Origin: Naegleria gruberi
Lineage: Eukaryota
Assembly: GCA_000004985.1 (NCBI GenBank)
Contig: GG738855.1
Strand: one strand, 5' to 3'
DNA: 64,000 nt
Made by a program: the position numbers and the translations under genes. The notes below the pieces were generated by a model. It saw only the letters and a list, made by a program, of their open reading frames with translations. It was not told the DNA's origin and did not search any database. Below, one piece after another: positions 15,801 to 60,930 of the stretch (positions within the stretch are counted from its first letter, which is position 1; each line of letters opens with the position of its first letter).

Positions 15801-18800
15801 GTCTTGGCATTTTGTGATTCTTGGGTTGCCTTCTTTAATTTTGGAATGTCATTGGATGCATTCTTTTCAATCACTTTGAGAATTTCATTAACTTTTTGTT
15901 CCTTCTTCTTTGAAACCTTTTCTTTTTGATTCTTTTCCTCTTCCTTGACTTCTTGATAGACTGAATTGAATGGTGGTGATTGTTTTACACCAAGCCAACC
16001 TTCTTCAGATTCCAAACTGAGAATAAATTCTTCTTGGGCAGCGTCTTGTTCAATGCAATTCAAACTTGATTGAAGATATTCCTTGGCCACTGGGGAGGTT
16101 AGAATAGTGGCCAATGAACGTTGGTTCTTTCTCAAGATGGCAGTAATGATAGGGATCAAACTATATTGTTTTTCTTCAATCTTGACAAAGAGTTTGGCCA
16201 ATGTATAGAATACTCTAGCTTGACTCATAATTGTATCCTCACTTTCAGTCTTGAAGGTTGGTTTTGGAACTCTGTTGTGTCTAATATCATTACTAAGAAG
16301 AGCTAGCATTCTGATACCGTGTTTGGCTTCTTGAATCTCCTTTTCGTCCAATTCGCACAAAAGGAAGAGTTGCAATCTGAAAAGAACAAAGAAGAGTGAT
16401 GGTGTTGGAATGTTACTTCTTGCGTTTGTTAAATCGGTAGCAATACTGATAATGGTTTGAAGAATGAATGGATTGGTATTCTTCTTGAAACCGTCATGAT
16501 GCAACAATTCCATAGCCTTTGGATCCTTGATAGACATTTTGATAATATAGTCAAAACCTTGCATGAGATATTTGATTATGTAGAGTTTTTCATTGTGACG
16601 GTTGTCTAGTTTGATAATAACACTTGAAGCATCTGGAATTTCTTGCTTACTGTCTGTTGTGAGAACAAATTGTTCGACAGCTAAAGTAATTCTAAAGAGG
16701 TTTCTCCAAAACTCTAAATCCTTATTGAATTGAGTGTTGTTAATTTGGTTAATAACAAATGGTAAGAATCTCTTCAGGAAGATAATAAATGCTGAGGTTC
16801 TATCAATTTCCTTTCTATCGCAAATAATTTCAATTTGGTAGAAGGTTTCCTTCAATTGCTTGTAACCATTGGTAAGATTCAAATGTTCTGACAATACAAT
16901 AGAAATAGTGTCGATAGCGCTTTCAAATAGAGAGTATGCCTTATCAGGTGCAGATCCAGATTCTGGAATAGCAAGAGACAAGATCCAATTTTGCCAACCA
17001 AACTGTTGTCCAAACATTACTCTATTGTGAGGATTTGATTTAAGGAGCATGTTAAAATCTGATAGAGCCTTTTCCTTTGTACTCAGAGACTTGTTAGAAG
17101 TCAAATTAAAGAATGTTCCCAAGAGATCTGGTAAAAGTATTCTTGTTCCTCCTTTGGAAATGTCTGTTGATATTATACTATTGATATTGAAACTAATCTT
17201 ACACAAAATAATTTCTAACAAGGCAGTGTAAGTTTCTTCATCAAAGGTATTCTCGTTAAGTAATAAATGTTCGATAAGTAAAATGTATCCAAGGTTCTTA
17301 AACTTGAGTCTTTTTTCAGAATTTGATCTTTCCATAATTTTACCAATAAGTTTCAGAGAGAAGATACGAATCTTCTTCTTACTATTGGTTAACATGTGAA
17401 GGAGTGGAAGCATTACCTTCTCTTCAGAAAGACTGTCAATAATATTTGGAATTTCCTCATCAATTAATACTAAAACCCATTTGAGAGTTTCGACAACTTG
17501 TTTCTCATCAGAGCAGTCAACAATACATGACACAATTGCCTCTGCTTCAGTCTTGCTTATACCTGATCTAATCATGAGTTTGATAATTTCTGTCAGTTGA
17601 AGTCTAAGAGCATAAATTTCTTCTTCCTTTGGTCTAACTGTTGGTTGATAAATTCTTTCAGGTTCCTTCTCAGGTTTATACCAGAAGAAATATCTCATAA
17701 CGTCCAAAATGAATTGAACTCCAACAATTTCATGGAAATATTCTGGATTTCTGGATACTTCTTCATAGAGGAAATGTAACATGTTGCTATGAATGTCAAA
17801 ATCAACAGATACCCACAACTCGAAACTCAAAAACAATTGAAGGAAAATTTCTCTAATGATTGGATCTTTTGGATCTCCAGCGCATTCAATAAGTCCTTGG
17901 AGGGCTTTAAGAGTATCATGATTAATGTGTTCTGGAGGAATTTGACCAAGAATATGGCCAAGTGTACTTAGACTGTTCTTTTGTATCATATCTTGTTGAT
18001 TTTTCTTATTATGTCTCAACATTTCAGTAATAAGAGAAACAGTTCTAGCACACATGGAATAATCGACAGTCCAGTCTTTTCTCAATAAACTAAACAGTGG
18101 GAAGAGTACTTCAACACCACCAATACAGTTCAATGTATCCTTGACTGGGTGAGTAACAAAAATGGATGTGCCTTGCAAGAGTCTTGCATCAGTTGAATAA
18201 CCTTTCTTTGTACCTGAGTTATCAGGGCACTTGTAATCTTTTGTACATGATCGAGGATTATACAGACAAACCAATCTTTGGGAATATGAATCAGCTCCAG
18301 TCCAATCGAAATACCTTGGTTGAGAATCTCCCTTCTTGAATGTATATTGGAAATCTGGACCAGACCAGTAGATTTTTTGAATTTCTTGAAGAGTGAAGAA
18401 TTTGTCAAATATTGCTATTGGTCCAGCTTGACCACAAAATGAAAGCACTCTTGGTTGTTTGTTATCTGCAGGAATATTTGTACAAAAGTGAGCGAATGAA
18501 ACTTGACCACTGATTGGTGGATATTTCAGTTCTGATATTTGTTTTTGTTCTCCATCAACAAAGAGCACAATATCACTCTTCATCAAGAACTTTTTGTTTT
18601 GACTGAATGAAACAAAGTACCATCTATTTGTGTGGAAAAAGTGATCGAAAGTAATATTTTGTTGTTTTTTGCCACCAGATACAACCTGAACACAAATATG
18701 ATTTCCTTTGAAGAAGAATTCCAAACCATTCAACTTTTTATCAAAAAAGCTGAAAAATCTATAGCAGTTTGATTTGGTGGTTCTTTCAATTCTTAACCAA

Positions 18801-19743
18801 CAACTAAATGTATATCCATTGGAGGGAAACATTAAATTGTCAGCAACTAGACCACAATCAATTCCATCAAAACTGAAAAATGATGAAGGAGAATCATATC
18901 TTGACATCTTTCTAATTACTTCCAAAATCAAAGGTGACAAATCTTTATCCAAAGAATAGCCATCAGAGTCTTCATCTACAGTATTTTTTGAATCACTAAT
19001 CTTTGTTCTCATCAATTTTATCAATGTCTTTAATTCTCTAGCAGACACACTAAAACTTCCAACAATACCAACCAAATAAATTAATTTTTGAATGACATTT
19101 AGACTAAACTTTGAATGTTTCGAAAGTAAATTATTAATCGTTTGTACTAATCCAACTGATGCAGCAACGCTATTATCAATTGTGCATTCCTCCAAGAGAA
19201 CAATAAAAATATCTAGTATTTCAATTTGGATTTCTTCGGCAAGATATGGAAGTAATGTAAATATGACTGTTATGGTTTTTGGTGATTGGAAAATAAAGTT
19301 AGTTTGTGAATCGAAACGTGCTGTTGATCCGACAAGCTATTAATGTTATGTTATAAAAAACAAATAATTCATCATCACCAATTACAATTAATATATAGAG
19401 TATATTTTAGATTCATCAAATAAATACATACTGTATCTAATAAACAATCCATCAATAATTTCATAGATTTTCTATCACTTCCAAAAACTTTAACCAATTC
19501 CGCAATTCTATTCTCCTCCTGTTCAGTCATGACTGATCCTGATGATGAATACATTAATAATTGTCTCAAAATATCATGTTGTTGCGTAGATAGATGAATC
19601 AAAGCAGGTTGATTTGACTTGGGTTCCTCTCTTTGGACAAAGTGTTGTTGTTGTTGCTGTTGTGCCACAACATTATTTCCGGCACGATTGGATGCAGTAG
19701 ATTGTTGTTGATTACTACTTCCGCCTCCAAAGAAAGAGAACAT
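12860..19743 (-). CDS. BEACH-domain protein (LvsA/neurobeachin-like) with C-terminal WD40 repeats, about 2,230 aa. 2 exons, approximately join(19440..19743, 12860..19336).
   Basis: The 2,111-aa ORF in the track begins at a TTG, not ATG. An upstream ATG exon (MFSFFGGGSSNQQQ...MDCLLDT) splices through a 103-nt intron (GTATGT..TTAATAG) in frame into ..LVGSTARFDSQTNF..LLEECTIDNS.. The BEACH core is QYPVFPWVIKDYTSDHIDINDTSIYRDLSKPVGALNEKRLKNILERYEAFQDQTIPKFHYGSHYSSVGVVLFFLLRLEPFTS, with a PH-like region before it and WD40-like repeats after it. Confidence 0.8.
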
Positions 19744-19924: not shown

Positions 19925-21592
19925 TTATTGAGATATCAAGGTCAAGTGAGGATAACTTTGCAAATTGAATTTGAGAGGGGAAATGTTGGGACAATCTGAA
20001 AGAGTTAATATTTTCACATTTGGAGCACATTGTAGGAATCTTTCGAGTAGCTGATCATTAATTTGAATACTATGGGATAAATCTAAATGAGTTAATTTTT
20101 CAAATTTGTTGGCAAATGACTTTTGGTTGATTTTCTGTATCTTTAAACTCTTCAAATTTGGACAATCTATTGTACATTCCACAGAGGTATCTCCTAACAC
20201 TGTCAATTCTTCCAAATGTTCAGATCGAACAGCATCATCATGGAGGAAATTCACTTGCACTTCTCTCAATTTAGGGAAGAATGGGAAAATATTTCCCAAA
20301 TCATATTTTACATTATGCAAATGCAAGAGGGTTAGATTAGGTAAAAAGTTTCTAATATTTTCAAAATTAGCACAACAATATGGCTCTATAATTAAATTTT
20401 CAATAGATTCCATTTGTTTGGTAAACTTTTCATCAAAATAGCTCATAATTTTAAGTGTCCTAAGTTGGGTACATCTCTCCATAAACTTTTCAAAATTAAA
20501 GGCATGAACTCGATTAATACTAAGATAGGTCAATGAATCTGTCAACTTTTTACAATTAAAATCCAGAGTTAATGAGGGTGGATTCGTTTCAAAGTCAATC
20601 TCTACATGACTCAATTCGGAAGATTCAGTTGTCAACTCAATACTTGATAATCCTGTACATTCTAACAACTTTAAAATCTGTAAATTTGCTAATTTCTCCA
20701 TGAAAAATCTATAAGTTTCGTCATTCAACTTGCATTTGAACAAGTCTAATACTGTTATATTGGAAAATGTTGCCGACATATCTTCCTCAATACATCTCTG
20801 CAGAACAGTATCTCTTCTATATTCTTCTCTCACACTTTCAATCTTGTTTTCAATTGTATCTTGAGCATTTGCATTGTCAGATGTTGCTGTCGATTTACTT
20901 CTTTTAAAAATTGAGAATATTGACTTTCGTTTTGTAGTTTTTGGTTGTTCTAGAGTGGCATTGATGGCTCTAATACGTTTGGTCAATCTTCCCTTTAGTA
21001 ATGTACATTCGGATAGTTTCAACTCGTTCAATTCTTTCAAATTATAAATCATGTAATAAATCAATTCAAATGAAAATCCATCTCGGAGTTGATCCAATTC
21101 CACTCTTTTCAATTTTTCGAACAAGATAACAGAAGATAACTTTTCAATCTCTTCAATCATTAAATTTTCTTCGAATAATTCTCTCAACAAGTTTGTATTT
21201 GAAAGTTGTTGTGCCGACTGACTACTTCCAGTACTACTGCTACTATTATTACTTGTTGGTGAAGAGGGTGGTTGTAGGAAGGGTTGGAAATATTCACTTT
21301 CATCAACACTCAACGAAGAGGAGTTAATTTTCAATTCGTGTATCATTCCGACCAGAGATTCAAACCACTGCTTACAAACTAAAAGGGTTGAATTTTGCAA
21401 ATGTTCTCTAAAGGAGAGAAATTTGAAAATGTGCACAAGAGTTTCAGGCTGGAGTGGATGATGCCTATTTACACTACTCTTTTCCATAATGAACGAAGAG
21501 GTGAATTCTTCCTCGGCTTGTCCAATTGGTTTCAGCTGTATTTCTTCTTCATTATGGTTGGGATGTGTTGTTGGATACTGTCCATTGGCCAT
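19925..21592 (-). CDS. F-box / leucine-rich-repeat protein, 555 aa.
   Basis: ATG start. The N-terminal F-box is LQPETLVHIFKFLSFREHLQNSTLLVCKQWFESL. The C-terminal half carries LRR-like LxxLxLxxC repeats (LTHLDLSHSIQINDQLLERFLQCAPNVKILTLSDCPNI). Confidence 0.7.
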   Translation of the reverse strand: MANGQYPTTHPNHNEEEIQLKPIGQAEEEFTSSFIMEKSSVNRHHPLQPETLVHIFKFLSFREHLQNSTLLVCKQWFESLVGMIHELKINSSSLSVDESEYFQPFLQPPSSPTSNNSSSSTGSSQSAQQLSNTNLLRELFEENLMIEEIEKLSSVILFEKLKRVELDQLRDGFSFELIYYMIYNLKELNELKLSECTLLKGRLTKRIRAINATLEQPKTTKRKSIFSIFKRSKSTATSDNANAQDTIENKIESVREEYRRDTVLQRCIEEDMSATFSNITVLDLFKCKLNDETYRFFMEKLANLQILKLLECTGLSSIELTTESSELSHVEIDFETNPPSLTLDFNCKKLTDSLTYLSINRVHAFNFEKFMERCTQLRTLKIMSYFDEKFTKQMESIENLIIEPYCCANFENIRNFLPNLTLLHLHNVKYDLGNIFPFFPKLREVQVNFLHDDAVRSEHLEELTVLGDTSVECTIDCPNLKSLKIQKINQKSFANKFEKLTHLDLSHSIQINDQLLERFLQCAPNVKILTLSDCPNISPLKFNLQSYPHLTLISQ

Positions 21593-32901: not shown

Positions 32902-35157
32902 TTAGAAAAAGTCGTTTGGATCGTCCCACTTATTATTATTGACACTGGGGTATAGATTACTCTTTGCTTTCTGTTCCTTTTCAAATTGAGTAAATGGATC
33001 TTCATCCAGATTCACATTACTAAATGTACCTGACGTACGACTTGGTTTGTGTAGACTTGTTGGAGTGGTGGAGACTGGTGTTGGTTGAAGAGGAGTACTG
33101 ACACTTTGTCTCTTGGTTGGTAAGCTTGGAGGAGGCTTTTCAGGTCTCTTTGGAAGTGGAATATTTGATTTTGGAACATTTGGTGAGGTTGTTGTGGTTG
33201 GGGTGGTTGGTTGTGTGAAGGTATTAACATTGGATTGTTGTGGTGCATAGGTTGGCAAGGAACGAGATGGAGGTGGAAGGAAACCTTTCTTTTTAGATTC
33301 TTCCTCAAAGGAATTGTATGGTTCTGCTACGAATGATGGAACTTCAGCCTCTTCTCCACCTGAGGAACTATTAAACTTTTGAATTCTTTGTTGTCTGAAT
33401 TGGTCAATTTGATCTCTGACATATGGTCCAATGTAGGTTGGATAGAGACCTATCATTAATTCACAAGTCTTGTTGATAGCTTGACTGTCCTTGGCCATTC
33501 TCATTGGATTGTTATCCATGCTCTTTAAAATATTTACACCAAACACAATCGAAAGGTTAGAAACTGTCATCTTATTTTCACTAGAGTGAGCAGCAACCTT
33601 TCCTAAAAAGACCATCAATTTATCCAACAGAGCAATATGTTCGATTGGTAATTGTTTAACCAACTCCAACATTCCATATCCAATTTGGCTCTCATCTTGT
33701 CTATGAATTAAACTGAGGAAGGAATCATACCTTTCATAGGTCAATAATGGTTCTGGTAATTCTCTCAAGAACATTTTAAGGAGACCAGCAACAACGTGAA
33801 TATCTTTGAATTCCTTATTGGTGATCATTGCTTGCAAGTCGAGATGTTTCTTACCATTGTCGTACATCTTTTTAACATAACTCATACCAACAACTTCACC
33901 AGCCAATCTGAAAATACCTTCCATAGTTAGACCATTCTTTTCAACATAATCAAAGAGATCAATACACATGTTTGGAACAACATCACGATTCAATTCTCTT
34001 TCTCTCTTCATGAGGGCTGTAAGAGCAACACCAAATACTTGTTTGTTTTCCTTTGGCTTTTTTGGCTTTGGTTGTTGATAGACTTGTTGTTGACTGGCCA
34101 CATTGTCCTTATAGTTAGTAATATCATTTACATCATAGTTACGCATGGCAGTTCTTGATTTACCAGTAATTAAATGGCTTGCCAATTCATCCAATGCTTG
34201 GGAACCAGCAATGAAATATGTTCTATAAACTGAAATAAATTGACGAATAGCATTCAAATATTGATAATCTCTCAATTCTTCTTGGTACTGCATTTCCTTC
34301 ATAATATTCTCGTGAACTTGAGCTGCTACCTTTTTCTTTTCTTCAGCATCCTTCTCTGCATTCTTAACCTTGACGAGATCATTTGACTTTTGTTTAAGAG
34401 TATTGTAACGAGTTTCATCGACATTGTGTTCAACAACTGCTTCTCTATAGTATTCCTTGAGATTTTTACAAGTATCACCTTCTTCCATTGATTCATGAAT
34501 TTTACTCAGTAAGATACTGGAAACATCGTTATTCATATTGCTTCTGAGTTCAGCCAAAACTTCCAAACAACATCCCAATTGATCAAACATGTTAAACATT
34601 TTGTTAACTTCAAGATTTGTATAGTAGGTCTTTGGAGGTGCAAATGATTCACCAGAAACATAATCCATTTTCAAGGTGGCTGCATATTCTTTGAATTGAG
34701 TTGCAATACCCAATTCGTCTTCAGAGTGAATTTGAGATGACTTGGTGAACTTTCTCAAAAGTTTATCCATTTCTTTGTAATGACCTTGTGTATCTTTGAA
34801 AACTTGATTGTTACGAACAAAATCGTCTGGATATTCAATTTCTTCTGCCTTTCCGATAGTTTTCATGATTTTATGTTTACCTGTTGAAATTGAAACAATT
34901 TAAATTATAAACACTAAAACATATTACATGAATTACATACCAACAGTTGTTGCCTTCTTCCAAAATGTTCCCATAACATTTGCACCACTATTTGTACTGG
35001 TACTCGATGCTGTGGCACTATTATTTTGTGAAGGATTTGAAGAACGAGGTGATGATGGTGAATCATCATTAAATTCATCAGATCCTGCACTGACATTATT
35101 ATAATTACTACTTCCAGCAGTACCTGTGGTTGGTTTTTTACCAAATATTCCCCTCAT
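32902..35157 (-). CDS. BAR-domain RhoGAP protein. 2 exons, approximately join(34941..35157, 32902..34880).
   Basis: Exon 1 (MRGIFGKKPTTGT...FWKKATTVG) joins through a 60-nt intron to GKHKIMKTIGKAEE.. There is an N-terminal BAR-like helical region. The RhoGAP domain is VFGVALTALMKRERELNRDVVPNMCIDLFDYVEKNGLTMEGIFRLAGEVVGMSYVKKMYDNG...LLKMFLRELPEPLL. The C-terminus is Pro/Thr-rich. Confidence 0.8.
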
Positions 35158-43784: not shown

Positions 43785-46748
43785 CTATTGTTCTTCTTGT
43801 TTTGACACTTTGGCCATTCTCTTACTTTCCAATTCAGCTAGCCATGGAGCTTTTTGTTGTTGAGTAGCAGTGGTGTTATTGCCTTGTGGAATGGGTGGAG
43901 CTTCTCTTCTTATTAGAGTCTTTTTTCTTTCCTCAATGGTTTGTTGAAAGTCAGAGGTTCTTCTTGCTATTTGATTTCCCATAAACTCTTCAGGATTGGC
44001 AGGTGAGTTTTCTCCACTATTTGCCTGTTCGAAGGCGGATAAGGATTGTCTATTCTTGTTGAGGAATGGTGAAGTCTTTGTATGTTGATCATTTTGCAAG
44101 GATAACCTATTGCTTGGTGGCATCATTTCCCCAGCAGAAGCAATCTCAGATAGAGATGAGTGAATATTCTTCACTTTGTCCTCTGAGGAGAGATTATTCT
44201 TTGAGTTGGATGGTGATTGCTTCTTACCATTAAATATTTTGAGATCCATATTGAGAGCTTTGAGAGGGTTGAATCCTCTAGCTGAACGAGGTGATTTCAA
44301 AGATGAACCATCCTCTGAAATTGTGGAAAGGTCACTAATTGATGTAGATCTAGACATTCTGTTTCCATCAACCATTTGGCTTGACGCAGTATCGGCTGTA
44401 TCACTTGAAGCTGTTGTCTTACTATCATCACAACTTGCATCATCATCCAATGCTAGGGATCCAAATGTTATTTCATCCTCTGGAACAATATCACGTACAA
44501 CTGCATCCTTCTTTGGAATTTTGATTGTAACCTTGTCTCTTTGTGAATAGCACATATAGTATTCACTATTTTCAAAATCAATAATATACACATTTTGTTC
44601 ATTGAAAATTTTCTTAACTCTTGTATGAACTAGTTTGTTGGCTCTGAGCTCTTTGACTGGGCCTGCATTACAGCTTGTATTCTGGGATAGTTTGTCTATC
44701 CATTCATTACAAGCAATTGCTGTTGGACATGTAATTAAGTAGGTTACATCTTCTGTGACAATCTCGAAACTTTGTTTGTCATAGTCCAAGTCGAAATAAA
44801 TCCATGGATATTTGAAATATTCTACATTCATCTCATTCTTGAAATTAATGTGACACGAATATTTACCCTTCTTTGCGATTAAAACCATGTCATTCAAAAG
44901 AATGAGGGTTCTCTTATCTCCCTTCTTGATCTTTCTTCCCAATACAATTTCAGAAACAAGGAAATCTTCACCTTCCATAACAAAACATCTACTAGGTTTG
45001 ATAATACTTCCACCAATGTTTTCGTGAAGTTTTCCAATTGTTGTATCAATTTCATTCATCTTCATTTGATTTTGAACAACATTCATGGCACTATTGACGT
45101 GAGAGCTGACTTGTTTTGATAATTCTAGTGCTTCATTAATATTCTTGAAATCGTAATGAGTTTCTGGTGTATGCTTCAATAGCTCATTCAAAAGGAGAGT
45201 ATATCTCGGTAAACGTTGGACTGGCTGAATCATGTAGGAAAAGAAACCAACTTTACCCTGTTTTCTAGCATTTCTTTCCATTTCGTTCATATAGCTATCA
45301 AAACCAGGGTTTTCCTTCATCATGTCTTTAACTTTGCTTGCAATGTTATTGTAATTATTCACATAATCTGTATACACTTTGAACATTGGCATGGTTCTTT
45401 TAAAGAAGAGACCAATGGATTTGCTGGTGTCATCTTGTGTTTCAAAAGTAACATCAAGAGTTTTCCATTGTTTTAAAAATCCTTCATTGACACTCTTAAT
45501 AACTGTCATTTTGTCAAATATGAAACTCAAATCTTTCTGAGTAATAATTTGTTTAGAACCAGAAACTTGTGTAGCATTTCCCAAAGCTCTTAAAGGTTTA
45601 ATATAGAACCTTTCCAAATGATTCATTCCTTCAACATAATTCTCCTCGGTTTTAGAAATTTCCGCAATAACTTCCCATCTCAATTCCCTTCTTTCAATTT
45701 CCTTTTCCTCTGCTGTTTTAATTTTCTTTTGCGGAATTGGAGGTGGTGCCGATTTACCAGATCTATTAAAAGACTTGATGGAACCTTCTTCTTCCTCTTC
45801 TTCTTCCTCGTCATCTGATTCATCACAAGTTGACAACTTTTCACTGTGAGCTGAAGATGGAGGATTATTTGGTTCCTCTTGTGTTGGAGTCAAGACACGA
45901 TCCAGATCCAATTTGAAGGCATGTGTAGATTTTGTAGCAATGTCATTTTCATCATCCTTCTTCTCTTCACTTTTTGGTTCACTGGTAGGAGTGCTGACAG
46001 GTGTTGTTGCAGAACTAGTGGTGGGTTCAGTAGGTTTTGGAGGTGGAATTTTGTGCAAAATAGTCAGCACTTGTGGTGATTGTGCCTTTTCTTTGGATTT
46101 ACCATTACTGAATAGCTTACTTCCAATATTGAGAGTGGATTTTACGAATGAGCTCGTACTATTATTGCTGTTATTGCTAATTCCCTTTCCAACATTTATG
46201 GAGAGAGAAGAACCAGAAGTGACATCATCAACTTGACCACCAACCGATGATCGACCACCTCCAGAAAGATTATTATTACCACCAACCACTGAAGCAAACT
46301 GAATAACACCACCTGTTGAACGCTCAGAAGGGCTATTCACTGATGCAATGGTCTTTGATCGTACAGTAGGTCGTGGAGGAAGAGGAGGTGGTGGTTTTCT
46401 AGAACCACCAGGAGATGAAGGTGAATTATTTCCTCCTGCTACATTGTTTGTGGTGGGAGAGGAAGAAGCCGATGACGGTGAAGAGTTTGTATTTTTGTTG
46501 TTGTTGAGAGAATTGATGAGTGCCGTTGGAGGTGATGCATTGGGACGAAGTGTATAGGATCGAGAGGAGGATGTTGTTGTTGTTGTTCTGCTATTGTTGG
46601 TTGTAGCGATGGTTGGAGAGTCAGTAACGGTATTTGTTGTTATTGTTTCACTATTATTATTTACCAGTGGTGTTGTTGTTGTTGTTGTGATGAAAGAAGA
46701 TCGAGGAGGTTTTGGTGGAGGTACTGGAAGTTGTTTTGTTGAAGACAT
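43785..46748 (-). CDS. RhoGEF: DH (Dbl-homology) domain plus PH domain, 987 aa.
   Basis: The N-terminus is Thr/Ser/Pro-rich. The DH domain is EKEIERRELRWEVIAEISKTEENYVEGMNHLERFYIKPL...MIQPVQRLPRYTLLLNELLKHTPETHYDFKNINEALE, with the QRLPRY-type hallmark. A PH-like region follows. Confidence 0.8.
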   Translation of the reverse strand: MSSTKQLPVPPPKPPRSSFITTTTTTPLVNNNSETITTNTVTDSPTIATTNNSRTTTTTSSSRSYTLRPNASPPTALINSLNNNKNTNSSPSSASSSPTTNNVAGGNNSPSSPGGSRKPPPPLPPRPTVRSKTIASVNSPSERSTGGVIQFASVVGGNNNLSGGGRSSVGGQVDDVTSGSSLSINVGKGISNNSNNSTSSFVKSTLNIGSKLFSNGKSKEKAQSPQVLTILHKIPPPKPTEPTTSSATTPVSTPTSEPKSEEKKDDENDIATKSTHAFKLDLDRVLTPTQEEPNNPPSSAHSEKLSTCDESDDEEEEEEEEGSIKSFNRSGKSAPPPIPQKKIKTAEEKEIERRELRWEVIAEISKTEENYVEGMNHLERFYIKPLRALGNATQVSGSKQIITQKDLSFIFDKMTVIKSVNEGFLKQWKTLDVTFETQDDTSKSIGLFFKRTMPMFKVYTDYVNNYNNIASKVKDMMKENPGFDSYMNEMERNARKQGKVGFFSYMIQPVQRLPRYTLLLNELLKHTPETHYDFKNINEALELSKQVSSHVNSAMNVVQNQMKMNEIDTTIGKLHENIGGSIIKPSRCFVMEGEDFLVSEIVLGRKIKKGDKRTLILLNDMVLIAKKGKYSCHINFKNEMNVEYFKYPWIYFDLDYDKQSFEIVTEDVTYLITCPTAIACNEWIDKLSQNTSCNAGPVKELRANKLVHTRVKKIFNEQNVYIIDFENSEYYMCYSQRDKVTIKIPKKDAVVRDIVPEDEITFGSLALDDDASCDDSKTTASSDTADTASSQMVDGNRMSRSTSISDLSTISEDGSSLKSPRSARGFNPLKALNMDLKIFNGKKQSPSNSKNNLSSEDKVKNIHSSLSEIASAGEMMPPSNRLSLQNDQHTKTSPFLNKNRQSLSAFEQANSGENSPANPEEFMGNQIARRTSDFQQTIEERKKTLIRREAPPIPQGNNTTATQQQKAPWLAELESKRMAKVSKQEEQ

Positions 46749-54297: not shown

Positions 54298-56529
54298 ATG
54301 CCATTCTCTTTCCGCAAAAAGAGGAAAGCAGATGCTACTTCATCAACTGCCGAAATTGAACAAATAATAACAATTGACACACAACAACAAACAAACAATG
54401 AAAACGCCCAACCCAATTCCTCTCCATTACTAATGATGAGAGGTGAACCAAAGAAGAAAACACTTTCAAAATCTTCTTCCCATTCGTTTATTTCTTGGTT
54501 GACCCCTAGAAAGAAGACACAATCATCACAATCTATTTCGAATAATAATAACAACACTTCCCTAACTAGTATTGAAGATAATGCATCAACAATTCAACAA
54601 ACGCCAAAGACTCCTTCTACAAAATCACCAAGAAATTCGAAACTCGTCACATCACAATCAACAAGTTATATTATGGATCATGTAGAGAGACAAAAATCAT
54701 CAAACTTCTCTTCATCAATGCTTCCTTTGACGCCACTCAACAACAATAATTACGATAGTCAACGAAGTAAAATTAGAGTAGTAAAATCAGAGAAAACACC
54801 AAGAACATGTTCATCTCCAACCAGTGACGATGAATATCATTTAGGAATTAAACATTCCTTCACCATGTCTGTTATTTCTGATGAAAAGTCACCACGATTT
54901 ATTCTTTCAACACCCGATAATAATGCACAAGAGCTAGTATTTGGTAGTGCTGTTGAGAATATAATTTCAGATTATGATTCGGATGGTTTTTGTTTCTCTC
55001 CCCTTGTGGACGAAACTAGTCCATTCCAGGAGACTGCCAACAAGACTGCTTCGACATCCATCTTATCAGATGACCAGGCAGAAAAGGAAGTGGATGAGTA
55101 TGAAATTTTTGAAGAGTGGGCTAAACGATTTGATACCACAGAGCCATCATCTCTCTCTACAACTCAATTATCGACAAAGAAGAAGAGTGCCTCTTCCAGC
55201 TTTTCCAAACTCTTCAATGCAGTCTCACACTTGGATCCATTCATTCATATTCACCATACTACACCTTCACGGGGGAATAAGGTAAAATCACTCTCTCCAA
55301 AGAGTGCTACTACCAATGATTTATTCAATGATACAGAGACAGGAGGAGCTCTAATAATTAATGATGAACCAGCTCCAGATAGGGGAAGATTTAGTAGAAG
55401 TTTTAAAAATTTAATGATGGGAAAGAAATCTCCAGTGAATGGAGCTCTTTCTTCGTTGAGCCCTCGTCACGACAAGTCTCCTCCTCCTCATACAGTTGTA
55501 CAACACAGTCGTTTGCTTGTTATACTTCCAGATGAAATCAAGAGTCTCATATTTGAGTTTGCAGAATTTAAAGATATTCTCTCAATAAGGAGTGTCTGTA
55601 AAGAATTGAATGCCATCACAGACGATGACAGATTTTGGCAAAGAGTATGCTTTGAGTTGTCACTCGATTTTTCACAAGTAACCTACAAGCATTTGAAATC
55701 TCTATTCATTGAGAATCAACTTCATGTTACTTTGGCTGGTGATGAAGGAGTGGGAAAATCTCTCCTCATTCGTAGGTTAAGTAATAATCCTGCCTCTATC
55801 TTGGAAAGTAAAGGAGGAAGAAAGCAACTGTACGACTCAATGTATATGCAAGATGAGGAACCTTACTATATTTACTTTAAGGAGAACAATAAGTTTGACA
55901 AGTCACACAAAAAGAGCTCACGTAGGGAGGATGTGTACTTTGTCTGCTTTTCAATTTTGGATAAGAAATCTCTAAGCAGAACTAAGAAGGTATGTTTGGT
56001 ATAGCAATTATTAATCAAACTTACATATTATTTATATTACTATTAATGATGCATATATTTTATAATAACAAATACTAAACAGTGGATTAAGGCTATTCGT
56101 GCAAAAGACATAACTAAACCCATTATACTGGTTGGTCTAAAGGTAGATCTCAGAGACGAGGAAGGATCCGATCAATTCAAACTCATCAAGACTGAACAAG
56201 GCGAACAATTCAAGAATCGATTCAAACTCTTCTCCTACAGAGAGGTGAGTAACAAGACAAGAACTGGTCTTGAAGAGCTCATGCGTGATGCCATCAATGC
56301 CAAACGTATTCAAACAGAAAAGTTTTACAATTATGACAAGACACTAGGAACAGAAGCAGAAATGGAAGACATATCTGAAGATGTTTTCAATTATAGCGAT
56401 GAGGACGACATGGATTTAGATGGTTTTAATAGTGCACTCCCCACCAATACAGCGACAACATCCATAAGTAAGACAGCTACACTCTCCAAACGACTCTCAC
56501 AAATGAAAATCAACTTTGTTCTCGATTAA
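54298..56529 (+). CDS. F-box protein fused to a degenerate Rho-family GTPase domain. 2 exons, approximately join(54298..55989, 56073..56529).
   Basis: S/T-rich N-terminus. The F-box is LLVILPDEIKSLIFEFAEFKDILSIRSVCKELNAITDDDRFWQRV. The Rho-like G domain reads VTLAGDEGVGKSLLI (G1); DVYFVCFSILDKKSLSRTKK|WIKAI..KPIILVGLKVDLRDEEG, which matches the Rac/Rho DVFLICFS...TPIILVGTKLDLRDD block; and FSYREVSNKTRTGL, matching ECSALTQRGL. The switch II DTAGQE is replaced by YMQDEE. There is no C-terminal CAAX; the protein ends ..KINFVLD. The intron is 83 nt (GTATGT..AAACAG), in frame. Confidence 0.7.
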
Positions 56530-56781: not shown

Positions 56782-57921
56782 ATGGGATTGAATCCATCCA
56801 AGATTTCTAAACACAACCGAGCAGAATTCGAATTCAACTATAAACCAAGATTAAATTCTGGAAGTGTTTCTAAGAAACATTCAATTCCAACCGATATTAT
56901 TCATGAGATTGCTTCGTTCATGACCTTAAAGGAGATTATTCACTCCTTCAGTTGTTTATCAAGGGGATTGCGTGGCAGATTCTTCCTCAATCCAACCTCT
57001 CCTCATTGGAAAATCATTAACCTTTCTGATGAAATTATGTTTGGTGATTTGCAAATGGAGAAAATAGTTCAAAATGGTGTTCTCATCCATTCAGAAATGA
57101 TAATTCTCAGAAGAACAAATGTAACTTCTTATTCCCTAAGAAAAATCACCAAGTTTTTAAAGAAGAATCCTGATAATAATCTTTCTCTCCTCGATGTTAG
57201 AGGTTGTTGTAAGGTTTCGAGATCTTCCAGCAAATTGCTTCAGAGAAGTAAGCCTTCCATTCAAATCAGAATGGAAACTAGATCTGACCACTTTGAATGT
57301 ACCTCCGAAACCATTGAGATGAGTAACAATATATTTTCAAATTCCAATTACTTTAATAGATTAACACAAGAGTCTGATAACAATATAATCTATTATGGAT
57401 TTGATGTAGCAAAATGTGCCTGTGACTATTGCTCTGCCTTTAATGTAAAGATGAAATTACTAATGGCTATCTATGGTCCCTATTATTTAGATGTGTTTGT
57501 TGGAAACTTTAAATATGACTTTTTTGAAAAAGCAAGCTCTTCAGCAAAGATTGATTGCTTTACTCCAACATTTGGTACCTCTAAATCATTCATTCCTACT
57601 GGTAATAGTCTGAATTATATTTTGAGAAAGCTTTGGAAGTACAGATTGGTCAAATCTGCCAACTTGGAATTGATCTATAGAAAATACACTCACAATCCTC
57701 TATTCATTGGTGAAGAAGAAATGAATTCATTGGAGTGTTTTTGTGACCGATATGGACCAATTATTGTATTGAGAAATGATGATATTGTAGTGATTGCAAC
57801 CATATGCAACTTGGGTGTTGTCTTTACATCATTTGATAAATTGACAAGCCTTGGAAATGCTATCAAGGCAAGCAGATTCCTCTCGTGCAACGCACATTAT
57901 GATTTGGTTGATATTGCTTAA
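56782..57921 (+). CDS. F-box-like protein, 379 aa.
   Basis: ATG start. The N-terminus IPTDIIHEIASFMTLKEIIHSFSCLSRGLRGRFFLNPTSPHWKIINL is F-box-like. The remainder is Cys-rich and LRR-like. It ends at TAATAA, directly followed in frame by the next ORF. Confidence 0.5.
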   Translation: MGLNPSKISKHNRAEFEFNYKPRLNSGSVSKKHSIPTDIIHEIASFMTLKEIIHSFSCLSRGLRGRFFLNPTSPHWKIINLSDEIMFGDLQMEKIVQNGVLIHSEMIILRRTNVTSYSLRKITKFLKKNPDNNLSLLDVRGCCKVSRSSSKLLQRSKPSIQIRMETRSDHFECTSETIEMSNNIFSNSNYFNRLTQESDNNIIYYGFDVAKCACDYCSAFNVKMKLLMAIYGPYYLDVFVGNFKYDFFEKASSSAKIDCFTPTFGTSKSFIPTGNSLNYILRKLWKYRLVKSANLELIYRKYTHNPLFIGEEEMNSLECFCDRYGPIIVLRNDDIVVIATICNLGVVFTSFDKLTSLGNAIKASRFLSCNAHYDLVDIA

Positions 57922-59217: not shown

Positions 59218-60930
59218 TTAGAATGAGAAGTGTCTAGCCACAATTGAATTCTCACCATACTCATCAAATTCATCCTTTGTAACACACATGTTGTCAAATG
59301 TACTCAAGGACATTAAGATGTTGGCTCCTAATAAAATGGAGTCCTCTCTATTCTTATTAATATTGACTGTTACCGTTTCAGCTCGCAATGACTTGGTTAA
59401 TTCTGATTGAGTGAGTTTCTTTTCCAATTCTGTAGAGAATCTCTCAGGTAAACCTTGGAAATTTGATGACCCTCCACAAACAACAAGGTTATTCAAGCTT
59501 GTCAATACCATTTCCTCATCCATAGATTCCAAACTCTCAATAACTGAATTTTGAATGCTTCTTCCACACCAAGATTCATAATATTGCTTATCAATAGATA
59601 AGTCAAAGAAAAATTCTGTACAATCTCCCAATATACCCTCTGATTCTGTTGGAATTCTCAAAATATTACCATCTGGAAGGTTGAAAACTGGTGCAGTATC
59701 ATTTTTTCTATCTTTCGAATGTACTTTCGTATAACAAAGTTTCTCCTTAATAGATCTCAAAATCTCCTTTTCTGAACTTGTAGCAAACTTTAAATTGACA
59801 GTATCCAAACATTGATTTTTCAAAAGCATTGCTTGTAATACTTCCTCAACTGAATGACCACCAAAAGGAATGGCCTTCAATGAATTCCATACAGGCATTC
59901 CTTCATAGACTGGCAATACTGTTGTGAATAACTCTCCCATATCAATAACCATACCACTTGTTTTACCAATACTGAAAATTGGCAAGACATGATCAAGAGA
60001 TAGATACATTTTCTCATAATTCCAACTATCGAATGCATAATGAACGAGTTTCTCCTTCAAAGTTACATCTCTGTACAAGTAGAAAGGTAAAGCAGTGAAG
60101 AGACATTTAGGAGAATTTTGAGAGTTGACTCCTCTAATAAATTCAGCAACTTTCTTCTCCAACATTTGTTCACAATAGGATACAATTGGTTCAGTGTATG
60201 ATGTTGGTTGCTGTTTTGTCTTGAATGGAAAATCAATACGTTCAGAGACAATATACTGATCGAAATACTTTTTTAGCGGATAATTAAGTGTACTAATTGA
60301 CCTTTGTTCCAAACATTCATTTCCAAAGGTTTTCAAATCTTGTCCTCTCATCTTACTTTCAAAATCATGATTTCTATCCTTTCTATTCGCAATAACAGTT
60401 GCTTGATTCATCAATCTAATCTCATTTCCATCTCTACTCATTGAAATTTTAGTATTTTGAGCACCAATTGACCAAAATACTTTCACTTGATCACTTTCTT
60501 TCAAAATCTTTTCCGAAAATCTTTCCTTTACCAACAAATCTTGTCCCTTTTTCAATTTCTCCAAGAATTTACCATCATCATTTCTATCAACACTCCCGAG
60601 AGTAGCAGCTTGATTTAAACTCTTTCCCTTTCTATCATTCAAATCACTCCACTTTAATTGTTGCAATGCCGTTGTTGGATCACCCTTTCCCAATTTGACT
60701 TTAAATTGTGTTGTATGTTTGTTTGAAAATGATTCCCTATTTGCTTCTTCGCTGGTTCGTTGGGCAATTTTCCTCTGCAATGAGACAATTTTATTGATAA
60801 TGATGAGGGAGAGGATGGAAACTACAATGGTCGAAAATGATAAAAAGATTAACAGATTTGGAGTTAATCCGTAGGCATCGAGGCCATAGTCATGAATGGA
60901 TTCTGCAATGGCTTGTCTCCAAATGTCCAT
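59218..60930 (-). CDS. Divergent actin-related protein (Arp) with an N-terminal extension containing a predicted TM helix, 570 aa.
   Basis: Single exon with ATG start. The actin fold is recognisable: VIDMGELFTTVLPVYEGMPV (actin VxDxG...P.yeG); LVVCGGSSNFQGLPERFSTEL matches actin VLSGGTTMFPGIADRMQKE; ILLGANILMSLSTFDNMCVTKDEFDEYGENSIVARHFSF matches actin [32 protein letters not shown]. The N-terminus has a 23-residue hydrophobic segment LLIFLSFSTIVVSILSLIIINKIV. Confidence 0.7.
   Translation of the reverse strand: MDIWRQAIAESIHDYGLDAYGLTPNLLIFLSFSTIVVSILSLIIINKIVSLQRKIAQRTSEEANRESFSNKHTTQFKVKLGKGDPTTALQQLKWSDLNDRKGKSLNQAATLGSVDRNDDGKFLEKLKKGQDLLVKERFSEKILKESDQVKVFWSIGAQNTKISMSRDGNEIRLMNQATVIANRKDRNHDFESKMRGQDLKTFGNECLEQRSISTLNYPLKKYFDQYIVSERIDFPFKTKQQPTSYTEPIVSYCEQMLEKKVAEFIRGVNSQNSPKCLFTALPFYLYRDVTLKEKLVHYAFDSWNYEKMYLSLDHVLPIFSIGKTSGMVIDMGELFTTVLPVYEGMPVWNSLKAIPFGGHSVEEVLQAMLLKNQCLDTVNLKFATSSEKEILRSIKEKLCYTKVHSKDRKNDTAPVFNLPDGNILRIPTESEGILGDCTEFFFDLSIDKQYYESWCGRSIQNSVIESLESMDEEMVLTSLNNLVVCGGSSNFQGLPERFSTELEKKLTQSELTKSLRAETVTVNINKNREDSILLGANILMSLSTFDNMCVTKDEFDEYGENSIVARHFSF

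What the first reader, a model, noticed from the sequence alone, without database searches (positions are those of the whole stretch)
54298..56529. F-box fused to a degenerate, CAAX-less Rho-family GTPase domain
An N-terminal F-box (LPDEIKSLIFEF..) is joined to a domain that aligns block-for-block with Rac/Rho. The P-loop GDEGVGKS, DVYFVCFS, PIILVGLKVDLRDEEG and the SNKT G5-like element all match. The switch II DTAGQE is replaced by YMQDEE, so the catalytic Gln and the DxxG are absent, and the C-terminus lacks the CAAX prenylation box. The architecture parallels RhoBTB, an atypical Rho fused to a Cul3 adaptor, but with an SCF/Cul1-type adaptor motif. That suggests a nucleotide-binding but GTPase-dead Rho module acting as the substrate-recognition or regulatory part of an SCF ligase. 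I have not seen this combination described as a family.
Basis: partly seen in the sequence, partly recalled or inferred. Interest (0 to 1): 0.65.

Follow-up and report, generated by a model that had tools for sequence, protein, structure and literature searches.

The report
Known Naegleria F-box–Rho fusion protein
This is a real Naegleria gruberi gene that joins a ubiquitin-ligase docking motif (F-box) to a degenerate Rho-type GTPase domain, but the protein is already in GenBank and a 2021 Naegleria genome paper lists it as an F-box/Rho fusion, so it is uncharacterised rather than new.

Summary
A two-exon gene (54298-55989 and 56083-56529, with a 93-nt GT..AG intron, not 83 nt) encodes a 712-aa protein. 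It has about 400 disordered residues, a canonical F-box (res 409-452, Pfam E 2e-11), a 25-aa linker, a Rho-like G domain (res 474-646, Pfam Ras E 2e-15) and an acidic tail without CAAX. PDB sequence and fold matches are all Rac/Cdc42/RhoA.

The P-loop, the G4 K/D and G5 are kept. Gly12, Gly60 and Gln61 are absent, and no switch II helix is predicted.

The window is Naegleria gruberi NEG-M. The protein is 100% identical to XP_002679999.1 ("rho family small GTPase"). Herman et al. 2021 (PMC8296547, Table S8) list this accession as Rac + F-box, with N. fowleri Rac35 as its orthologue. They also state that F-box fusions to Rab, Rho, Ran and Gα are frequent in Naegleria. The novelty claim and the Amoebozoa suggestion are therefore wrong.

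New here:
- The orthogroup also occurs in Willaertia, Acrasis and three metagenomic relatives.
- The G12/G60/Q61 losses and an invariant NNPxxx[IL]ES motif are family-wide.

Most likely it is an SCF substrate receptor whose binding module is a nucleotide-bound, non-switching Rho domain. That mechanism is inferred, not tested.

The parts
54298..55989 (+). Exon 1 (codons 1-564): N-terminal extension, F-box, linker, and the G domain from beta1 to the start of alpha3
   Evidence: One open frame of 564 codons from the first ATG. The N-terminus MPFSFRKKRK is conserved in N. fowleri and a third Naegleria sequence. The spliced product is 100% identical to XP_002679999.1.
55990..56082 (+). Intron, 93 nt (GTATGT...AAACAG), inside the G domain between beta4/alpha3
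   Evidence: Among the frame-keeping, stop-free GT..AG pairs listed, this one restores alpha3 without gain or loss of residues relative to Rac1 and matches the annotated protein exactly. Read-through stops after 4 codons. The position is conserved in N. fowleri: read-through call P0004 against spliced P0020. The metagenomic relative P0009 has no intron at all.
56083..56529 (+). Exon 2 (codons 565-712 plus TAA): alpha3 to alpha5 of the G domain and the acidic tail
54298..55509 (+). N-terminal extension, res 1-404: S/T/N/P/K-rich and predicted disordered, with 17 S/T-P sites and short conserved blocks (MPFSFRKKRK 1-10; SFISWLTPRKK 63-73; DEYEIFEEWAKRFD 266-279; TGGALIIND..GRFSRSFKNL 348-372)
   Evidence: pLDDT is below 50 except for a helix at 268-278. 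The blocks are conserved among three Naegleria sequences and partly in Willaertia.
55522..55653 (+). F-box, res 409-452 (LPDEIKSLIFEFAEFKDILSIRSVCKELNAITDDDRFWQRVC)
   Evidence: PF12937 E 2.4e-11 and PF00646 E 7e-8. L, P, L, W and C are invariant in 7 relatives. The model shows helices at 412-420, 424-433 and 435-441.
55651..55719 (+). Linker, res 452-474, ending in the conserved YIENQ; predicted helical
   Evidence: Conserved length and the [YF][IVL]xxQ motif in all 7 relatives. Helices at 444-453 and 463-472.
55717..55989 (+). Rho-like G domain, first part (res 474-564): beta1, P-loop GDEGVGKS (55738-55761, Glu at the Gly12 position), family motif NNPASILES (55783-55809), Tyr512 = Rac1 Tyr40, beta2/beta3, degenerate G3 slot KENNKF, basic loop KSHKKSSRRE (55900-55929) in place of the switch II helix, and beta4 DVYFVCFS
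56083..56328 (+). Rho-like G domain, second part (res 565-646): alpha3, beta5 and G4 LVGLKVDLR (56128-56154), a shortened Rho insert, alpha4, beta6 and G5 EVSNKT (56242-56259), alpha5
56329..56526 (+). C-terminal tail, res 647-712: acidic (…FYNYDK..TEAEMEDISEDVFNYSDEDD…), predicted disordered, ends …KINFVLD with no CAAX
   Evidence: The first 30 or so residues are conserved in N. fowleri and Willaertia.

Best explanation
**What it is (shown).** This is the Naegleria gruberi gene for XP_002679999.1, an atypical Rho-family protein. The F-box sits 25 residues upstream of a Rho-derived G domain, the place where other F-box proteins carry their WD40, LRR or other substrate-binding domain.

**How it most likely works (inferred).**
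- The F-box docks on Skp1, making the protein a substrate-receptor subunit of an SCF (Skp1-Cul1-Rbx1) ubiquitin ligase. The Rho-like domain would be the target-binding module.
- That domain probably still holds a guanine nucleotide. P-loop GxxxxGK[ST], the K and D of NKxD, and an acidic residue at position 57 are conserved across the family.
- It cannot work as a normal switch. Gly12, Gly60 and Gln61 are missing in every member, and switch II is a basic loop rather than a helix. It would therefore behave as a permanently 'on-like' or static Rho surface. Tyr40 and a family-specific invariant NNPxxx[IL]ES motif would recruit partners for ubiquitination; Rho effectors or regulators are the obvious candidates.
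- The long, S/T-P-rich disordered N-terminal extension would supply regulation or localisation in place of the missing prenyl anchor.
For: **Identity.** 712/712 identical to XP_002679999.1/D2V7I2. Listed as Rac + F-box, orthologue of N. fowleri Rac35.

**Domains.** Pfam F-box and Ras hits are well above their cut-offs.

**Rho affinity.**
- All top 60 PDB sequence hits are Rho family.
- A family HMM scores Cdc42, Rac1 and RhoA at 86, 81 and 74 bits, against HRas, Rab1a and Ran at 37, 36 and 24 bits.
- For the AF2 model (G-domain core pLDDT 80-93), the top 50 Foldseek PDB hits are all Rac/RhoA/Cdc42/EhRho1, TM 0.71-0.79 on the target for the single-chain entries.

**The fusion is real and maintained.**
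- The F-box and P-loop share one ORF.
- The same architecture is found in N. fowleri, Willaertia magna, Acrasis kona and three metagenomic proteins at 28-68% identity.
- One of these (P0009) is a single intron-less ORF.

**Conservation pattern.**
- Invariant: G10, G15, K16, S/T17, K116, D118, R120, Tyr40 and the NNP..ES motif.
- Position 12 is never Gly.
- Positions 60 and 61 are never Gly or Gln.
- No member has CAAX.

**Structure.** The model lacks the alpha2/switch II helix.

**Literature.** Herman et al. drew the same general inference, 'GTPase-dependent ubiquitination'. Precedents for a GTPase fused to a cullin adaptor are RhoBTB-Cul3 and Rab40.
Against: - Nothing biochemical was tested. 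Skp1 binding, nucleotide binding and hydrolysis are all inferred from sequence.
- The G2 status is ambiguous. The invariant Ser504 aligns with Rac1 Thr35 in one alignment but not in two others.
- The guanine-stacking Phe28 position is not conserved, and G5 varies (SNK/SSK/CAL/CSA/CAF). Nucleotide binding could therefore be weak or lost.
- F-box proteins can act outside SCF, or the F-box can mainly drive the protein's own turnover. The latter was proposed for TbFRP.
- No substrate is known.
- Skp1 and Cul1 of Naegleria were not examined here.
Confidence: 0.55

Rival explanations
1. Self-regulation. The Rho-like domain is the signalling output, and the F-box mainly recruits SCF to the protein itself. 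Abundance is then set by auto-ubiquitination and rapid turnover, as for constitutively active atypical Rho proteins, and no other substrates are presented.
For: - A G12/Q61-less Rho domain cannot be switched off by GAPs. Such GTPases (Rnd, RhoH, RhoB) are controlled by degradation.
- RhoBTB2 is itself a Cul3 substrate with autoregulation (references).
- The extension is S/T-P-rich, so it could carry phosphodegron-like control.
Against: - The G domain occupies the canonical substrate-receptor position, 25 aa after the F-box, with a conserved helical linker.
- F-box proteins are commonly auto-ubiquitinated in addition to presenting substrates, so this rival is not exclusive.
- There are no data on half-life.
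Confidence: 0.2
2. Nucleotide-free pseudoGTPase. The G domain has lost nucleotide binding altogether and is only a folded interaction scaffold attached to an F-box.
For: - Switch I Thr and the DxxG Gly are missing or ambiguous.
- Phe28 is not conserved and G5 is variable.
- Switch II is replaced by a low-confidence basic loop.
Against: - GxxxxGK[ST] and the K..D of NKxD are invariant across relatives as distant as 28% identity, and an acidic residue is kept at position 57 in 6 of 7.
- From general knowledge, nucleotide-free pseudoGTPases usually lose these motifs.
Confidence: 0.15
3. SCF-independent Skp1 complex. The F-box binds Skp1 without a cullin, as in yeast Rcy1 or the RAVE and CBF3 complexes (from general knowledge). 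The protein would act in membrane traffic or cytoskeletal control without ubiquitination.
For: - Non-SCF F-box/Skp1 complexes exist (general knowledge, not tested here).
- Rho-type domains usually act on actin or membranes.
- The window and genome are rich in Rho regulators.
Against: - No positive evidence.
- The F-box is a strong canonical match.
- The many parallel F-box and BTB fusions to GTPases in Naegleria point to a cullin-based theme.
Confidence: 0.08
4. Artefact or decaying paralogue. The gene is either a mis-joined gene model or a degenerating member of the expanded Naegleria Rho family with no maintained function.
For: - Herman et al. note birth-and-death evolution and disrupted genes, though in Naegleria's divergent Rab-like clades rather than in Rho.
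- N. gruberi has more than 80 Rho genes.
- The switch motifs are degenerate.
Against: - The F-box and P-loop are in one ORF.
- Open frames with the same architecture and the same invariant residues occur in four genera plus metagenomes.
- The intron position is shared with N. fowleri.
- The G-domain core is modelled with high confidence.
Confidence: 0.02

Closest known systems
Naegleria F-box/Ras-superfamily fusions catalogued by Herman et al. [quoted passage not shown]
   Same: It is the same protein: 100% identity to XP_002679999.1. That accession is flagged 'F-box' under Rac. The authors also proposed GTPase-dependent ubiquitination.
   Different: Only the domain combination is listed there. 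In the passages I retrieved nothing is said about this orthogroup's missing G12/G60/Q61, the NNP..ES motif, the lack of CAAX, or relatives in Willaertia, Acrasis or metagenomes. Other Naegleria F-box-Rac paralogues whose sequences are given there keep DTPGQE and/or CAAX, and they score lower against this family than human Rac/Cdc42 do.
RhoBTB (atypical Rho + tandem BTB; Cul3 adaptor)
   Same: An atypical Rho-family G domain is fused to a cullin-RING adaptor module, it has no CAAX, and its G domain is regarded as non-cycling (general knowledge). RhoBTB is part of Cul3 ligase complexes. Naegleria also has true RhoBTB.
   Different: The adaptor here is an F-box (Skp1/Cul1 route), not BTB. It lies N-terminal to the G domain rather than C-terminal. 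Pfam finds no BTB. The fusion is independent.
Rab40 (Rab + C-terminal SOCS box; Cul5 adaptor)
   Same: A small GTPase doubles as the substrate-recognition subunit of a cullin-RING ligase (mentioned; details from general knowledge).
   Different: Rab40 is Rab family, has a SOCS box C-terminal to the G domain, and is a prenylated, functional switch.
TbFRP (FYVE + F-box + Rab-like GTPase of Euglenozoa; PMC3593210)
   Same: An F-box lies upstream of a Ras-superfamily G domain in another discoban lineage. The function of its F-box is unknown, and a link to turnover has been suggested.
   Different: TbFRP has a FYVE domain and a Rab18/Ypt6-like G domain. The authors found no orthologue in N. gruberi. 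The protein here has no FYVE and is Rho-like.
Rnd1-3 / RhoH (GTPase-deficient atypical Rho proteins)
   Same: They lack Gly12 and carry altered switch II or Gln61, and are therefore constitutively GTP-bound and regulated by abundance rather than by GAPs.
   Different: Rnd and RhoH keep Thr35 and the DxxG Gly, are prenylated, and are stand-alone small proteins without a ligase adaptor.

Membership tests
F-box proteins (SCF substrate receptors) | F-box motif of ~40-50 aa matching the family profile | tested here: met
   PF12937 43.6 bits (cut-off 24.3), E 2.4e-11; PF00646 32.5 bits (cut-off 20.5). LP, L, W and C are invariant in 7 relatives.
F-box proteins (SCF substrate receptors) | A protein-interaction domain C-terminal to the F-box | tested here: met
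   The G domain starts 25 residues after the F-box, across a conserved helical linker.
F-box proteins (SCF substrate receptors) | Binds Skp1 and assembles with Cul1/Rbx1 | not testable with these tools
   Needs a pull-down or a complex prediction with N. gruberi Skp1.
Rho family of Ras-superfamily GTPases | Small-GTPase G-domain fold | tested here: met
   PF00071 57 bits. The AF2 topology is b1-a1-b2-b3-b4-a3-b5-a4-b6-a5 with core pLDDT 80-93. Foldseek gives TM 0.71-0.79 to Rac/RhoA/Cdc42 single chains.
Rho family of Ras-superfamily GTPases | Closer to Rho than to the Ras, Rab or Ran families | tested here: met
   The top 60 PDB sequence hits and top 50 fold hits are all Rho family. The family HMM scores 74-86 bits on Rho/Rac/Cdc42 against 24-37 bits on Ras/Rab/Ran. 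Herman et al. class it as Rac.
Rho family of Ras-superfamily GTPases | Rho insert helix (~13 aa between beta5 and alpha4) | tested here: inconclusive
   The region is 6 residues shorter than in Rac1 but 7 longer than in HRas. No helix is predicted, and pLDDT is low at 589-593.
Rho family of Ras-superfamily GTPases | Complete G1-G5 motifs, including Thr35 and DxxGQ | tested here: not met
   G1, the K/D of G4, and G5 are present. Position 12 is Glu. The G3 slot reads KENNKF (E529, K532, F533 for D57, G60, Q61). Thr35 is ambiguous: Ser504 or Gly507, depending on the alignment.
Rho family of Ras-superfamily GTPases | C-terminal CAAX prenylation box | tested here: not met
   The protein ends …SQMKINFVLD with no Cys. 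No family member has one.
RhoBTB | Tandem BTB domains C-terminal to the Rho domain | tested here: not met
   There is no BTB hit in Pfam even at E <= 1. The C-terminal tail is 66 disordered residues.
TbFRP (FYVE-F-box-Rab-like) | N-terminal FYVE domain and a Rab-like G domain | tested here: not met
   No FYVE hit. The G domain is Rho-like. The TbFRP authors found no N. gruberi orthologue.
PseudoGTPases / GTPase-deficient atypical Rho | Catalytic and switch residues substituted | tested here: met
   Gly12, Gly60 and Gln61 are absent in all 7 family members.
PseudoGTPases / GTPase-deficient atypical Rho | Lack of GTP hydrolysis, or of nucleotide binding, shown biochemically | not testable with these tools
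   Needs purified protein.

The most novel reading that the evidence does not exclude
The Rac35 orthogroup is an ancient SCF receptor, conserved across Heterolobosea. Its substrate-binding module would be a locked 'decoy' Rho: it holds nucleotide permanently and uses a remodelled switch I surface (the invariant NNPxxx[IL]ES motif plus Tyr40) to capture Rho effectors, GAPs or GEFs for degradation. That would be a direct ubiquitin-based brake on Rho signalling in amoeboid cells, with no characterised equivalent on the Skp1/Cul1 route.
Probability: 0.2. Interest if true: 0.55.

Novelty: already known. Interest (0 to 1): 0.25.

Why it matters
If the inferred mechanism is right, Naegleria and its relatives wire Rho-type recognition surfaces directly into SCF ubiquitin ligases. 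That would parallel RhoBTB-Cul3 and Rab40-Cul5 in animals and show that "GTPase as ligase receptor" arose repeatedly. It would also give a tractable example of a conserved pseudo-switch Rho domain.

As a genome-scan finding its value is modest. The gene is annotated, the fusion is published, and this work adds only family-level sequence detail and a wider distribution within Heterolobosea.

Tried and rejected
**Searches that led nowhere**
- The word-indexed protein search with the C-terminal 310 aa returned only one distant F-box + Rab-like protein (P0001) and no orthologues.
I used the exon-1 part (F-box plus the first half of the G domain) instead.
- Its top hit, P0002 (7950 aa, 65 stretches), and P0012 are tandem-repeat artefacts, not relatives.
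- Exact look-ups of three neighbouring window ORFs found nothing on record.
- `search for related loci` on metagenomes with the family alignment failed because no stretch was conserved enough.
- Paper searches for Naegleria Skp1/cullin gave nothing usable.

**Structure prediction**
- Single-sequence AlphaFold of the 712-aa protein was uninformative (mean pLDDT 31.6).
- The run with the 9-sequence alignment was usable for residues 405-645 only.

**Readings considered and rejected**
- Amoebozoan origin. The organism is Naegleria.
- 'YMQDEE' as the switch II equivalent.
- Membership of RhoBTB or TbFRP. There is no BTB and no FYVE.
- Close kinship with the other Naegleria F-box-Rac paralogues printed in Table S8. 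They score lower than human Rac/Cdc42.
- A gene-fusion artefact.
Full report
**1. What is in the sequence**

On the + strand an ORF opens at the ATG at 54298 and runs 564 codons to 55989. A GTATGT...AAACAG intron of 93 nt (55990-56082) follows, then a second exon, 56083-56529, ending in TAA. Several GT..AG pairs keep the frame. This one matches the annotated protein exactly and rebuilds helix alpha3 of a small-GTPase domain without gain or loss of residues relative to Rac1. Read-through would stop after four codons.

The F-box and the first half of the G domain (P-loop to beta4) lie in the same uninterrupted exon. The fusion does not depend on the splice.

**2. Domains**

- Pfam scores the 712-aa product as F-box-like (PF12937, res 409-452, E 2.4e-11), F-box (PF00646, E 7e-8) and Ras family (PF00071, res 478-636, E 2.1e-15; 57 bits against a cut-off of 21.6). 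No BTB, FYVE or other domain is found.
- The 60 best PDB sequence matches are all Rac, Cdc42, RhoA or plant ROP.
- An HMM of the family's G domains scores Cdc42, Rac1 and RhoA at 86, 81 and 74 bits. HRas, Rab1a and Ran score 37, 36 and 24 bits.
- Single-sequence AlphaFold failed. With a nine-sequence alignment the G-domain core reaches pLDDT 80-93 and the F-box 65-74. Residues 1-404 and 646-712 are below 50.
- The predicted topology is b1-a1-b2-b3-b4-a3-b5-a4-b6-a5. No switch II helix and no Rho-insert helix are predicted.
- The 50 best Foldseek PDB matches are all Rho-family chains. TM-score on the target is 0.71-0.79 for the single-chain entries.

**3. G-motif status (Rac1 numbering)**

| Element | Sequence here | Status |
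|---|---|---|
| G1 | GDEGVGKS (481-488) | Intact, but position 12 is Glu |
| G4 | LVGLKVDLR (580-588) | Lys116 and Asp118 kept |
| G5 | SNK (620-622) | Present |
| G3 slot after beta3 | KENNKF (528-533) | Glu for Asp57; no Gly60; no Gln61 |
| Switch II | Basic loop KSHKKSSRRE | Low-confidence loop, not a helix |
| Rho insert | – | 6 residues shorter than Rac1, 7 longer than HRas |
| C-terminus | …KINFVLD | No CAAX |

Its conclusion that DxxG and Gln are absent is still right.

Switch I is ambiguous. An invariant Ser504, 17 residues after the P-loop Lys, aligns with Thr35 in one alignment. It does not in the HMMER alignment or the second MAFFT alignment.

**4. Identity**

An exhaustive HMMER search with the exon-1 segment found a near-identical ENA protein and a small set of relatives. 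Cluster look-up shows that the spliced product belongs to the cluster of XP_002679999.1 / EFC47255.1 / UniProt D2V7I2, "rho family small GTPase [Naegleria gruberi strain NEG-M]". The match is 712/712 identical. The window is therefore Naegleria gruberi (Heterolobosea), not an amoebozoan.

**5. Prior knowledge**

Herman et al. 2021 (PMC8296547) re-annotated the Ras superfamily of N. gruberi and N. fowleri. Their supplementary text makes three relevant points:
- Both species have "novel domain architectures".
- This points "to GTPase-dependent ubiquitination".

Table S8 lists XP_002679999.1 under Rac with the flag "F-box". [quoted passage not shown]

An earlier discoban precedent is TbFRP, a FYVE + F-box + Rab-like protein of Euglenozoa. 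Its authors found no Naegleria orthologue. RhoBTB-Cul3 and Rab40 are the animal analogues. The claim that the combination is undescribed does not hold.

**6. What this analysis adds**

The orthogroup is wider than the two Naegleria species. The same layout (disordered extension, F-box, ~25-aa linker ending YIENQ, Rho-like domain, no CAAX) occurs in:
- N. fowleri (CAG4719720.1; split into two models in another annotation);
- a third Naegleria-like ENA sequence;
- Willaertia magna KAL9647572.1;
- Acrasis kona KAL0486944.1;
- three metagenomic proteins.

One metagenomic member is a single intron-less ORF on a 55-kb eukaryotic contig. It sits next to a BEACH gene that is 48% identical, over the ~1,490 residues of the alignment that the output shows, to the BEACH gene in this window.

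Across the seven sequences (28-68% identity) the invariant residues are:
- the F-box L, P, L, W and C;
- G10, G15, K16 and S/T17;
- a family-specific NNPxxx[IL]ES motif after alpha1;
- Tyr40;
- K116, D118 and R120.

Position 12 is never Gly. Positions 60 and 61 are never Gly or Gln. An acidic residue occupies position 57 in six of the seven. The switch defects are therefore ancestral to the family and maintained, not decay in one gene.

Other Naegleria F-box-Rac paralogues printed in Table S8 keep DTPGQE and/or CAAX. They are less similar to this family than human Rac/Cdc42 are. That suggests separate or very old fusions.

**7. Mechanism**

- *Shown:* a canonical F-box placed where F-box proteins carry their substrate-binding domain; a Rho-derived fold; conserved nucleotide-contact motifs G1 and G4; family-wide absence of the residues needed for GAP-assisted hydrolysis and gamma-phosphate sensing; no lipid anchor.
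- *Inferred:* the protein is an SCF substrate receptor. Its Rho-like domain holds nucleotide but does not cycle, and presents a fixed, remodelled effector surface. The S/T-P-rich extension (17 sites), with its conserved short blocks, would provide regulation or targeting.
- *Rivals:* self-turnover through the F-box; a nucleotide-free scaffold; a cullin-independent Skp1 complex; an artefact or decaying paralogue. The last is nearly excluded.
- None of the biochemical steps could be tested here.

**8. Verdict**

Novelty is "already known": the gene is annotated and the fusion is published for this accession. Residual interest lies in the conserved pseudo-switch character of the orthogroup and in its untested role in ubiquitination.

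Noticed in passing
L001:4622-6394 and L001:6400-12867 (JGI metagenome 3300062347, contig Ga0606064_0122); window 12860-19195 (-): The metagenomic family member P0009 is an intron-less ORF. It sits directly beside a BEACH-domain giant that is 48% identical, over the ~1,490 residues of the alignment that the output shows, to the BEACH gene of this window, which lies about 35 kb from the F-box-Rho gene. This looks like loose synteny, and the 36%-GC contig probably comes from an unsampled heterolobosean.
   Followed up: partly
window 56782-57921 (+): The gene immediately downstream (379 aa, single ORF) also carries a weak F-box near its N-terminus (PF00646, E 1e-4, res 34-64). The rest has no Pfam match, apart from a sub-threshold PRANC hit. 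Two F-box genes therefore lie side by side.
   Followed up: partly
window 19925-21592 (-): This 555-aa ORF has an F-box-looking stretch (LQPETLVHIFKFLSFREHLQNSTLLVCKQWFESL) and a leucine-rich C-terminal part. It gave no Pfam hit at E <= 1e-3.
   Followed up: no
window 32902-34866 (-), 43785-46748 (-), 59218-60930 (-): The window also encodes a RhoGAP-domain protein (E 1e-37), a DH-type RhoGEF (E 7e-41) and a divergent actin-related protein (E 4e-44). This fits the large Rho-signalling complement reported for Naegleria. There is no evidence of a functional link to the F-box-Rho gene.
   Followed up: no
window 54298-55509 (res 1-404) and 56317-56421 (res 643-677): Short blocks in otherwise disordered regions are conserved among Naegleria species and partly in Willaertia: MPFSFRKKRK at the N-terminus, SF[IL]SWL..KK, [FI]EEW.K[RK]F[DE] (predicted helix), TGGALIIND…GRFSRSFK[ND][LI], and an acidic FYNYDK…SED.F..SD[ED]D tail in place of the polybasic/CAAX end. 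They are candidate linear motifs of unknown function.
   Followed up: partly
P0001 and P0016 (database proteins, not in the window): Two further short proteins from metagenome or sequencing-run assemblies have an F-box directly upstream of a Ras-superfamily domain. P0001 is Rab-like, with an intact DTFGQE and a C-terminal Cys. F-box + small-GTPase fusions are therefore not confined to this orthogroup.
   Followed up: no
P0003 (ENA contig, 4227 bp) versus window 54298-55989: A second N. gruberi-like source differs from the window product at only three places in 564 residues: one Ser insertion, N148S and R362K. It was gene-called without the intron, giving a truncated 569-aa product.
   Followed up: no
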